A stretch of DNA of 63,955 bases, counting the filler, from Collodictyon triciliatum (lineage: Eukaryota), in assembly GCA_043381765.1 (NCBI GenBank). It is 58 parts of 58 records of this genome, joined end to end, with 100 filler letters (N's around TTAATTAATTAA, not from the genome) between each part and the next. Parts side by side here need not be neighbours in the genome. Positions count along the whole stretch, not along the records: positions 1,111 to 2,120 come from JBHJMP010012735.1; 57 more parts are not named here. The stretch is one strand, 5' to 3'. Numbering within the stretch: position 1 is the first letter of the stretch; each line of letters opens with the position of its first letter. The position numbers and the translations under genes are program-made. Under the pieces are notes generated by a model, which searched no databases, was not told where the DNA came from, and worked only from the letters and a program-made list of their open reading frames with translations. This document shows positions 1,111 to 2,120 of this stretch, one piece after another.

Positions 1111-1111
1111 G

Positions 1112-1198
1112 TTGTTGAGTCCCTCTAGTCGTCGTATCGCTCTGTCAGTTGATGTAGTAAGAAACCGCCCTACCCCTCGTGCTCCTCGTTGTGCGTAA
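1112..1198 (+). CDS. 3' end of an unknown gene (LLSPSSRRIALSVDVVRNRPTPRAPRCA*), conserved upstream of the paralog at 20016
   Basis: Open frame ending in TAA. The same PRAPRCA* coding sequence (ending TAG) occurs at 19949-19972. Confidence 0.5.
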   Translation: MLSPSSRRIALSVDVVRNRPTPRAPRCA

Positions 1199-1241
1199 TT
1201 TACAATCATACTGGGGCACAGATAAAAATCTAGGGTATAGC

Positions 1242-2120
1242 ATGAGCAACCCTCCAACTTTTAGTGCAGCGTTTCCATCAGCAGACAGAATGCAACAGAT
1301 TACAACTTACGTAAAAAACACGTACGTAGAGGGCAAAATAGATGCTGAAGATATCAAAGTCGACGCAGTAAAAAAATATGCATACGGAAAAAAAAAACCC
1401 GAGACTAGTTTTAAATTTGCTATTATAAATAAGATTGCTTTGCTAAGATACGGATCTTACGAAAGAGCAAATGAAGAAGGTAAAAAAAAGGGCAACGAAT
1501 ACTTCTTTAATACTTATGGAATATCAAAAGCCCAAGGGTTTATTGAATTGATACCAGAGAACCTACAAACCGCTTTGAGAAATACATGGTTTGAGTCTGG
1601 TGAGCCGCTGCCTGCTAATTTGTCCGGAGGAGTTACACAACCCGCGACAGTTCCATACGAACGAACAGCAAGTGAAGAGTCAGGGCCTCGAAGTAAAGGG
1701 GAGACGATGGCGGAGTTTTTTGATCGTGAACGTCGTGAACGTCAAAAAGCCAAGCAAGCAGCTAGACGTGTAGAAACAGCGGAATCACAAGATACTGCAA
1801 TAGCCCCTTCACCTCAAGGCCAAGTTCAAAACCTTCCCCAACCTCTGGGTGAGGTACAACGTCCAACATCTGCAGAAGTAATTGAAATTGTCGATGACGA
1901 AGATTTTCAACCTGGTGAAACTGTTAATTTAGATGCAGGTATAACTAACCTTGTACGACCACCAGTTCAAGAAGAAGAACAAGTAGTAGAAGACGAGAAC
2001 ACAGTTTTATTAGACGCTGACCAGATCAGTGCTCGTTACGGCTTGCTTCGAAACACTATTTCGTCCGCCACCAAGGAGGTTTTCGTTTTAGGTTACTTAC
2101 AGAAACGCAATAGGGGGGTT
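1242..2120 (+). CDS. Intronless hypothetical protein, 3'-truncated; variable N-terminus plus conserved domain starting EDENTVLLDADQISARYGLLRNT; virus-like
   Basis: Long ORF from ATG 1242 with no introns, only 43 nt after the upstream stop. The C-terminal ~45 aa are nearly identical to those of the 20016-20954 ORF. Confidence 0.75.

What the first reader, a model, noticed from the sequence alone, without database searches (positions are those of the whole stretch)
1111..2120. Virus-like gene with a swappable N-terminal cassette between fixed anchors (paralog at 19949-20954)
Seen: both contigs carry the same upstream gene end (cctcgtgctcctcgttgtgcg-stop, PRAPRCA*) followed by tttacaatcatac...agataaaaat, with the ATG 43 nt after the stop in both. 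The next ~240-250 codons show no visible similarity. An acidic Pro/Glu linker follows, then near identity from EDENTVLLDADQISARYGLLRNT onward, with many silent differences. Both are intronless and tightly packed, unlike the host genes here. Inference: these are alleles of a multi-copy endogenous DNA virus or Polinton-like element in which one protein's N-terminal module is replaced wholesale between conserved flanks, a possible host-range or immune-evasion diversification cassette. It would also explain why each variant assembled as a separate 1-kb contig.
Basis: partly seen in the sequence, partly recalled or inferred. Interest (0 to 1): 0.8.

Follow-up and report, generated by a model that had tools for sequence, protein, structure and literature searches.

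The report
Hypervariable start of an orphan gene
Two short contigs carry two very different versions of the first 250 codons of one large gene of unknown family, set between well-conserved flanks; this looks like fast, recombination-shuffled divergence of a related module in an unidentified compact DNA genome, not a swap of unrelated parts, and nothing shows it is a virus.

Summary
The pattern is real. Contigs 1111-2120 (A) and 19949-20954 (B) share a 58-nt 5' stretch and a ~150-nt 3' stretch (about 85% identical). The ~750 nt between them do not align.

- The 5' anchor is not the end of an upstream gene. It is the start of a small gene on the opposite strand, 32 nt from the large ORF's ATG.
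- The 1-kb contig size means nothing, because all 58 contigs in the window are 1000-1010 nt.

A 3.5-kb metagenome contig (L001) has the same layout, a large ORF of more than 1043 aa, and an A-type N-domain at 35% identity.

B's N-domain is probably a remote homologue. A profile match sits at the collinear position, and 0 of 400 shuffles and 0 of 13 natural helical controls reach its score. All three copies also share the same domain layout.

Between A and L001, synonymous divergence in the N-domain far exceeds that in the flanks (p about 0.0005). That points to a mosaic history.

No family, viral hallmark or relative was found in any library. Whether it is viral or endogenous could not be tested.

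The parts
1111..1209 (-). Contig A: first 33 codons of a small divergently transcribed gene. Its start codon is the complement of 1207-1209, and the gene runs off the contig.
   Evidence: 33 of 33 residues are identical to the complete 119-aa minus-strand ORF of L001 (36..395). All 7 nucleotide differences are silent in this frame but change 2 residues in the plus frame.
1210..1241 (.). Contig A: 32-nt spacer between the two divergent start codons. It holds the conserved 10-mer AGATAAAAAT (1220-1229), 12 nt before the ATG.
   Evidence: The 10-mer is identical in A, B and L001. It occurs in the window only in these two contigs (2 matches; 0.72 expected; 15 of 100 shuffles give 2 or more). Spacer identity is A-L001 26/33, A-B 19/33, B-L001 21/34.
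1242..1601 (+). Contig A: N-terminal domain of the large ORF (residues 1-120), basic, predicted helical, hypervariable.
   Evidence: 33-35% identical to L001. AF2 secondary structure is all helical at low confidence. Net charge is +4.
1602..1988 (+). Contig A: acidic Pro/Glu/Gln/Ala-rich linker (residues 121-249), unalignable between copies.
   Evidence: Composition and net charge -11. 18 of 96 forced-aligned residues are identical to L001.
1989..2120 (+). Contig A: start of the conserved block (from EDENTVLL, 44 codons, runs off the contig). This is the '3' anchor'.
   Evidence: 86.4% nt identity to B and 88.6% to L001. dN 0.04-0.07 against dS 0.50-0.53.
19949..19983 (-). Contig B: first 11 codons (plus 2 nt) of the same small divergent gene. 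Its start codon is the complement of 19981-19983.
   Evidence: 11 of 11 residues are identical to A and L001. There is 1 difference of 35 nt to A and 5 of 35 to L001, all silent.
19984..20015 (.). Contig B: 32-nt spacer with AGATAAAAAT at 19994-20003.
20016..20345 (+). Contig B: N-terminal domain (residues 1-110), basic, predicted helical. It has no pairwise similarity to A or L001 but gives a profile-level match of 33 columns (B 29-61 to A 39-71).
   Evidence: no pairwise match. (hhalign 24.2; shuffles 11.4 +/- 2.2, max 21.2, 0 of 400; natural controls max 12.2, 0 of 13). (helices H4-22, H28-38, H45-59, H65-81, H86-98).
20346..20759 (+). Contig B: acidic Pro/Glu/Ala/Thr-rich linker (residues 111-248).
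   Evidence: Net charge -16 and composition.
20760..20954 (+). Contig B: conserved block (65 codons, runs off the contig).
   Evidence: 82% aa identity to L001 over 62 residues. pS 0.355, dN 0.096.

Best explanation
A and B are two natural variants of one locus of an uncharacterised, compact DNA genome that was co-assembled with, or lies in, a eukaryote assembly. The locus is a head-to-head gene pair. A small, highly conserved gene (119 aa in L001) sits on the minus strand. A large ORF (more than 1043 aa in L001), rich in Ala/Leu/Glu/Gln/Arg, sits on the plus strand. Their start codons are 32 nt apart, around a conserved AGATAAAAAT motif.

The first ~250 codons of the large ORF form a hypervariable region. 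It consists of a basic helical domain of about 110-125 aa followed by an acidic, probably disordered linker of 104-136 aa. The B-type and A/L001-type versions of this region are very old, still homologous allelic lineages.

The flanks (the small gene and the block from EDENTVLL onward) are much younger and under purifying selection. The most likely reason is that homologous recombination in the flanks moves the old N-terminal types, together with the promoter-proximal spacer, between genomes. Diversifying or balancing selection would then keep the types apart.

Shown: the anatomy, the coding strand of the small gene, the A-L001 homology, the excess synonymous divergence, purifying selection on the flanks, and the presence of the B type in independent environmental runs.

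Inferred: B's homology (profile-level only), recombination as the cause, selection, and any role at an interface with a host or partner. The nature of the carrier (virus, symbiont, or host element) is unknown.
For: Anatomy and strand.

A-L001 homology: 103/294 identical, E=2e-31.

B as a remote homologue:
- hhalign P=0.0021 at the collinear position.
- 0 of 400 shuffles reach the score, and reversed B scores 12.7.
- 0 of 13 natural helical windows of L001 reach it, nor does B's linker at 10.3.
- Predicted helices of A and B line up at the same offset of 10 residues as that alignment.
- The basic-domain / acidic-linker / block layout is the same in 3 of 3 proteins.

Mosaic history:
- Among codons with the same amino acid in A and L001, 19 of 33 differ in the N-domain against 17 of 73 in the flanks (Fisher p=0.00085).
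- In the ungapped block alone the figures are 16 of 25 against 17 of 72 (p=0.00046). For residues with 3 or more codons they are 12 of 15 against 13 of 49 (p=0.00048).
- Flank pS is 0.38, 0.36 and 0.355 for A-B, A-L001 and B-L001, so roughly equidistant. Yet only A and L001 have alignable N-domains.
- Left of the small gene's ATG, A is nearer B (1 difference of 35 nt, against 4 to L001). Right of it, A is nearer L001 (26/33 against 19/33).

Real and stable variants:
- A 7586-nt contig of run X1 holds the whole of B at about 98% (21 substitutions, 2 indels).
- Run X2 has 3 pieces with 0 differences.
- RNA run X8 has a 252-nt piece with 1 difference.

Functional genes: dN/dS is about 0.1-0.2 in the block and dN is 0 in the small gene. 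The variable regions are open in one frame only.
Against: - Only three sequences exist, and the flanks are short (44-65 and 11-33 codons), so distance estimates have wide errors. B may simply be somewhat more distant (dN to A 0.067 and to L001 0.096, against 0.04 for A-L001).
- B's homology rests on one 33-column profile match. Pairwise tests were null, and so was a three-way MAFFT test, where 101, 81 and 89 of 300 shuffles reached the observed values.
- Both structure models are of low confidence (pLDDT 45.1 and 40.7), so a shared fold is not shown.
- Excess synonymous change could also come from a locally raised mutation rate or from constraint on silent sites in the flanks.
- The breakpoint hint rests on a handful of sites.
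- No recombinant with a shuffled pairing of flank and module was observed directly.
- Run X2 may be the sample the window came from, and the kind 'DNA' of runs X1, X2 and X5 is a guess of the index.
Confidence: 0.5

Rival explanations
1. Ordinary divergence without exchange. The three copies are simple orthologues or paralogues, and the N-terminal 250 codons are just weakly constrained and partly disordered. They drift beyond recognition while the neighbouring gene and the block are held by purifying selection. The excess silent change comes from a local mutation-rate difference, from saturation effects, or from constrained silent sites in the flanks.
For: - The layout is the same in all three copies.
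- B gives a remote profile match.
- The linker is unalignable even between the clearly related A and L001 (18 of 96).
- B shows slightly higher dN in the block.
- The flanks are short.
Against: - Silent sites of identical-residue codons are about 2.5 times more often changed in the N-domain than in the flanks (p about 0.0005). Relaxed protein constraint alone does not predict this.
- The flanks are about equidistant, while the N-domains group A with L001.
- The B type is identical or 98% identical across separate runs, so it is not mutating fast on short time scales.
Confidence: 0.22
2. A multi-copy endogenous DNA virus or Polinton-like element in which an unrelated N-terminal module is swapped in wholesale between fixed anchors as a host-range or immune-evasion cassette.
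For: - Boundaries are sharp and pairwise similarity is absent.
- The gene pair is compact and intron-free, with a 32-nt spacer.
- The proteins are orphans.
- The history is mosaic.
- Near-identical pieces lie in outdoor and freshwater metagenome runs, at word depth 18.9 in X1.
Against: - The modules are probably homologous.
- One 'anchor' was misread.
- No capsid, packaging ATPase, polymerase, integrase or protease domain appears in any ORF of A, B or L001.
- No relative was found in IMG/VR in 5 scans, nor in the phage records.
- No repeats bound the segment.
- Only 2 copies are visible, and integration could not be tested.
Confidence: 0.08
3. A host nuclear gene family, or a gene of an intron-poor eukaryotic microbe in the sample, rather than a virus. 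A and B would be paralogues or alleles of a fast-evolving structural protein.
For: - The large ORF is long and rich in Ala/Leu/Glu/Gln/Arg, which suits a cytoskeletal or structural protein.
- Base composition and CpG ratio (A 1.01, B 0.80) lie within the spread of the other 56 contigs (median 0.93).
- No viral feature was found.
Against: - Start codons 32 nt apart on opposite strands, and ORFs of 293, 313 and more than 1043 codons without interruption, are unusual for the nuclear genome of an animal-like host. The other contigs of this window carry LTR-retroelement protease, LRR, NHL and HSP70 fragments.
- Near-identical pieces stand in 4 of 4 laid environmental runs from 4 studies.
- The 1.84-billion and 5.8-billion protein libraries hold no relative.
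Confidence: 0.15
4. An assembly artefact, meaning chimeric contigs.
For: The assembly is very fragmented, and both contigs end inside conserved sequence.
Against: - The whole of B is colinear with a 7586-nt contig of an independent run at about 98%.
- The A-type layout is repeated in L001.
- Both ORFs are open throughout.
Confidence: 0.02

Closest known systems
Allelic dimorphism of surface antigens with conserved flanks, such as Plasmodium falciparum MSP2/MSP1 block structure (recalled; no paper read)
   Same: - A few very old allele classes of one segment are flanked by conserved sequence in the same gene.
- The variable part is partly disordered.
- Silent divergence is higher in the variable block than in the flanks, which is read as balancing selection plus recombination in the flanks.
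   Different: - Here the variable part is the very N-terminus and seems to include the promoter-proximal spacer.
- I saw no hydrophobic signal-like start by eye; no predictor was run.
- The organism is unknown, there are no population data, and only three sequences exist.
Gene-conversion antigenic variation, such as trypanosome VSG and Anaplasma Msp2/P44 (recalled; no paper read)
   Same: A variable module lies between conserved sequence that could serve as recombination anchors. As with VSG N-domains, the modules can lose sequence similarity and keep the fold.
   Different: Those systems have one expression site plus an archive of silent, truncated donors in the same genome. Here all three copies are complete 5' loci with their own spacer motif and start codon. 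No archive could be looked for.
Streptococcal M protein (emm) (recalled; no paper read)
   Same: A long, probably helical protein with a hypervariable N-terminal part and a conserved remainder. Types persist as stable lineages.
   Different: M proteins carry a conserved signal peptide and an LPXTG wall anchor. Neither was seen here. There is no sequence relation (Pfam and NCBIfam null).
Modular exchange in phage tail-fibre or receptor-binding genes (recalled; the listing shows one such case from another window)
   Same: Mosaic genes in which one part is conserved and another is exchanged by recombination among co-circulating genomes.
   Different: In fibres the conserved anchor is N-terminal and the tip is C-terminal, so the polarity is the reverse. 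There is no PHROG match and no hit in 50,697 phage records.
Polintons/Mavericks, Polinton-like viruses and virophages
   Same: Compact, intron-free genes, and occurrence in water samples and in eukaryote assemblies.
   Different: None of their hallmark genes is present in the 1-3.5 kb that could be read. A coiled-coil-like ORF of more than 1043 aa is not a known component of these elements (recalled).

Membership tests
Polinton/Maverick or Polinton-like virus / virophage | Double-jelly-roll major capsid and penton protein | tested here: not met
   There is no capsid family in Pfam or PHROGs for the ORFs of A, B and L001. Only 1.0, 1.0 and 3.5 kb were available, so absence from the whole element is not shown.
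Polinton/Maverick or Polinton-like virus / virophage | FtsK/HerA packaging ATPase, maturation protease, pPolB and retroviral-type integrase | tested here: not met
   None is present in the sequence available. The flanks beyond L001 could not be read.
Polinton/Maverick or Polinton-like virus / virophage | Terminal inverted repeats and integration in host DNA | not testable with these tools
   No whole genome is held, and the contigs end inside the genes.
Diversity-generating retroelement target | A template/variable repeat pair with adenine-specific changes, a reverse transcriptase nearby, and a short C-terminal variable region | tested here: not met
   - No repeat pair was found in A, B or L001.
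- The variable region is about 750 nt, N-terminal, and has indels.
- The B type is unchanged or 98% identical across runs.
- No RT lies in the sequence available.
Invertible or site-specific shufflon | Inverted repeats or recombinase sites bounding the variable segment | tested here: not met
   There are 0 inverted repeats in A and B, and none at the boundaries in L001.
Gene-conversion antigenic variation (VSG, Msp2, pilE/pilS type) | Conserved sequence on both sides of the variable module | tested here: met
Gene-conversion antigenic variation (VSG, Msp2, pilE/pilS type) | An archive of silent, promoterless donor copies beside one expressed copy | not testable with these tools
   The whole assembly is not held. 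The copies seen all have spacer motif and start codon, so none looks like a silent donor.
Old allele classes kept by balancing or diversifying selection, with recombining flanks | Silent-site divergence in the variable block well above that of the flanks | tested here: met
   19 of 33 against 17 of 73 (p=0.00085). 16 of 25 against 17 of 72 (p=0.00046). This was tested for the A-L001 pair only.
Old allele classes kept by balancing or diversifying selection, with recombining flanks | Tree of the variable block disagrees with the tree of the flanks | tested here: inconclusive
   The flanks are about equidistant, and A is nearer B in the first 35 nt of the small gene. The N-domains group A with L001. 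There are three sequences and few sites.
Old allele classes kept by balancing or diversifying selection, with recombining flanks | The allele classes are homologous (one fold) | tested here: inconclusive
   The profile match exceeds all controls and the helix layout matches. However, the models have pLDDT 45 and 41, and pairwise tests are null.

The most novel reading that the evidence does not exclude
An as yet undescribed DNA virus or virus-like element, associated with a eukaryote and present in outdoor and freshwater samples, carries an antigenic-variation-like locus. Ancient N-terminal modules of a giant structural protein, each with its own promoter-proximal spacer, are passed between co-circulating genomes by recombination in two fixed anchors. 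The module would set which host factor or defence the protein meets.
Probability: 0.15. Interest if true: 0.7.

Novelty: new member of a known kind. Interest (0 to 1): 0.4.

Why it matters
If the reading holds, this is a clean small example of a hypervariable module with an older history than its flanks. It sits in a protein family with no relative in libraries of 1.8 and 5.8 billion proteins, on a genome that nobody has described and that also turns up in environmental runs.

Such loci usually mark the point where a parasite, virus or symbiont meets its partner. The locus could therefore serve as a handle for finding and typing the carrier.

It also carries a practical lesson for annotation: a conserved 'gene end' next to a short spacer may be the start of a gene on the other strand. 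With only three sequences and no functional clue, the finding is a lead and not a result.

Tried and rejected
Family and homology searches with no usable result:
- Pfam on A, B, L001 and the small ORF. Only sub-threshold hits appeared.
- PHROGs and NCBIfam.
- PDB sequences. One hit appeared at E=0.022 to a coiled coil and was ignored.
- The 5.8-billion word-indexed library, searched 3 times.
- The 1.84-billion HMMER library with B.
- ESM Atlas. The best score was 0.83, which is below the lead level.

Locus searches:
- IMG/VR with B, A2, the block, the small ORF and A5 found none.
- GTDB genomes with the small ORF and A5 found none.
- Phage and plasmid records by tblastn found none.

Other negative or unusable results:
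- No whole genome is held.
- Rfam on the window and on L001 gave nothing.
- No sigma-70-like promoter or terminator was found in L001 1-700. A -35/-10 reading of the spacer by eye was therefore dropped.
- The CpG ratio does not separate A and B from the other contigs.
- The three-way MAFFT identity test was not significant.
- Fold searches were not run, because both models were below pLDDT 50 over most residues.
- In one search, pieces that stop at 20760 lie beside a masked repeat (20715-20759), so they say nothing about a boundary.
- A 247-nt contig of X5 fits 19949-20125 only with 9 substitutions and 15 deleted letters. It may be a further variant, but it is too short to tell.
- Paper searches for three peptide words of the proteins found 0 papers.
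- A word search on hypervariable N-termini in giant viruses listed 4 papers (5 held the terms). I saw them only as listing and abstract starts, and none bears on this locus.
- Earlier findings of the scan: nothing on this genome or sequence. There was one unrelated phage case.
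Full report
**What the window is.** The window is not a continuous stretch of genome. It holds 58 unlinked contigs of 1000-1010 nt, joined by N/TTAATTAATTAA spacers. The other contigs look like a repeat-rich eukaryote: they carry an LTR-retroelement protease, LRR, NHL and HSP70 fragments. No whole genome is held. The 1-kb size of the two contigs in the finding is therefore shared with everything else and explains nothing.

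**The observation.**
- Contig A (1111-2120) and contig B (19949-20954) share 58 nt at the 5' end (84.5%) and 152 nt at the 3' end (85.5%). Nothing aligns in between.
- Each carries one long ORF that runs off the contig: 1242-2120 (293 codons) and 20016-20954 (313 codons).
- BLASTP aligns only the last 41 residues, at 85%.
- Smith-Waterman scores of the first ~248 residues are those of shuffled sequence. For the three ranges tried, 301, 265 and 278 of 500 shuffles reach the observed score.
- Both variable regions are open in one frame only.
- In the shared 3' block the differences are mostly silent: 11.5 synonymous against 6.5 non-synonymous, dN 0.067 and dS 0.53.
- No other contig of the window is related.

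**A third copy.** One scan of JGI metagenome contigs with the conserved block found one relative, L001 (3505 nt). It has the same layout:
- The shared 5' stretch.
- A short spacer.
- A long ORF that is still open after 1043 codons.
- An N-terminal region of the A type (103 of 294 identical to A, E=2e-31).
- A linker that no longer aligns (18 of 96).
- The conserved block, 82-91% identical to B and A.

**The 5' anchor is misread.** In the plus frame the shared stretch ends in PRAPRCA-stop. In L001, however, the minus strand holds a complete 119-aa ORF from ATG to stop (36..395). Its first 33 residues are identical to the minus-frame reading of A. All 7 nucleotide differences between A and L001 in 1111-1209 are silent in the minus frame, and two of them change the plus-frame peptide. 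The same holds for B, with 1 and 5 silent differences in 11 codons.

The anchor is thus the start of a small, strongly conserved gene transcribed away from the large ORF. The '43 nt after the stop' are a 32-nt spacer between two divergent start codons. The spacer contains the 10-mer AGATAAAAAT in all three copies, and that 10-mer occurs nowhere else in the window. No sigma-70-like promoter or terminator was called there.

**Are the two N-terminal halves unrelated?** Pairwise tests say nothing either way. A profile of the A and L001 N-domains (A3) matches B over 33 columns at the collinear place, A 39-71 to B 29-61, with hhalign score 24.2 and P=0.0021. The controls were as follows:
- None of 400 composition-preserving shuffles of B reaches that score (mean 11.4, sd 2.2, max 21.2). 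Reversed B scores 12.7.
- None of 13 natural helical windows from the rest of the L001 protein reaches it (max 12.2). B's own linker scores 10.3.

AlphaFold models of both domains are of low confidence (pLDDT 45.1 and 40.7), so no fold search was justified. Both are all-helical, though, and the helices line up at the same 10-residue offset as the profile alignment. All three proteins share the same build: a basic domain of 110-125 aa (net +3 to +8), an acidic Pro/Glu/Ala-rich linker of 104-136 aa (net -11 to -16), then the block. A three-way MAFFT test was not significant.

I read this as probable remote homology, at roughly 0.8. That is not the replacement of one module by an unrelated one.

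**Is the history of the module different from that of the flanks?** Yes, as far as three sequences can show.
- Between A and L001, codons that encode the same residue differ in 19 of 33 cases in the N-domain. In the flanks the figure is 17 of 73 (Fisher p=0.00085).
- Restricting to the ungapped BLAST block gives 16 of 25 against 17 of 72 (p=0.00046). For residues with three or more codons it is 12 of 15 against 13 of 49 (p=0.00048).
- The N-domain is thus near saturation at silent sites (pS 0.66). The block and the small gene stand at pS 0.34-0.36 and 0.26.
- The three flanks are about equidistant (pS 0.38, 0.36, 0.355), whereas the N-domains group A with L001 and leave B far outside.
- In the first 35 nt of the small gene, A differs from B at 1 site and from L001 at 4. 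In the adjoining spacer, A matches L001 at 26 of 33 and B at 19 of 33. This hints at a breakpoint near the small gene's start codon, but on very few sites.
- No repeats or inverted repeats bound the segment. That rules out a shufflon or a DGR in the sequence available.

**Presence elsewhere.** The 31-mer index listed 20 runs from 14 studies with some of B's words. I rely only on the four that were laid:
- X1, an outdoor metagenome, has a 7586-nt contig holding the whole of B with 21 substitutions and 2 indels, at word depth 18.9.
- X2, a freshwater metagenome, has three pieces with no difference.
- X5 has one identical piece and one poorly fitting piece across the 5' anchor.
- X8, a metatranscriptome, has a 252-nt piece with one difference.

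B is therefore a real, stable variant and not a chimera. X2 might be the source sample, the 'DNA' label of X1, X2 and X5 is a guess of the index, and RNA libraries can hold DNA.

**What it is.** I could not name it. Searches of the family libraries, PDB sequences, the two large protein libraries, the ESM Atlas, IMG/VR, GTDB genomes, and phage and plasmid records (itemised under Tried and rejected) gave no relative and no hallmark domain. The searches by exact peptide words are narrow, so absence there is weak evidence.

The tight head-to-head pair, the lack of introns over more than 1043 codons, the orphan status and the depth in X1 fit a virus or another small compact genome better than a host nuclear gene. 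This is circumstantial. The CpG ratio does not set A and B apart from the other contigs.

**Most likely mechanism.** The region is a hypervariable N-terminal part of a very large protein whose allele classes are old and still homologous. These classes are carried on younger flanks because homologous recombination in the conserved small gene and in the conserved block reassorts them. Diversifying or balancing selection keeps them apart. The anatomy, the purifying selection on the flanks and the silent-site excess are shown. Recombination, selection and any role in contact with a host are inferred.

**Comparison with known systems (recalled, no paper read).**
- It works most like dimorphic antigen loci with conserved flanks, such as MSP2.
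- It works less like VSG- or Msp2-type conversion systems, because every copy seen is a complete 5' locus and not a silent donor.
- It resembles M protein in having a variable tip on a long helical protein.
- It has the reverse polarity to phage fibre swaps.
- It meets none of the defining features of Polintons, Polinton-like viruses or virophages in the sequence at hand.

**Verdict.** It is a new orphan member of a known kind of locus. Interest is moderate, because the carrier and the function remain unknown and the evidence rests on three sequences.

Noticed in passing
window 57454-58454 (minus strand): The whole contig is one open frame of 333 codons, rich in Gly/Thr/Ser/Asn and fibre- or beta-helix-like by eye. 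GC is 0.427, close to A and B. There is no Pfam, PHROG or NCBIfam family, no phage-record hit and no IMG/VR relative. It could belong to the same unknown non-host genome, but nothing links it to A or B.
   Followed up: partly
window 18843-19848 and 28790-29793: Two contigs are 90% identical over about 900 nt. The first ends with what looks by eye like the start of an L1-type endonuclease ORF. They are probably copies of a host retroelement.
   Followed up: no
window 46443-47443 (minus strand): A retroviral-type aspartyl protease (RVP_2, E=6e-15) in a 253-codon open frame. This is an LTR-retrotransposon fragment of the host.
   Followed up: no
window 1-1010 with 24370-25374, and 45341-46342 with 56353-57353: Two further contig pairs share about 490-520 nt at 74-78% identity. 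They are presumably dispersed host repeats.
   Followed up: no
L001 426-428 and 417-428: L001 has an extra in-frame ATG 9 nt upstream of the conserved start codon of the large ORF. A and B lack it, so the conserved ATG (window 1242 and 20016) is the likelier start.
   Followed up: partly
window 19949-20125, run X5: A 247-nt environmental contig fits the 5' anchor and then the first 110 nt of B's ORF only with 9 substitutions and 15 deleted letters. It is possibly a further N-terminal variant.
   Followed up: no
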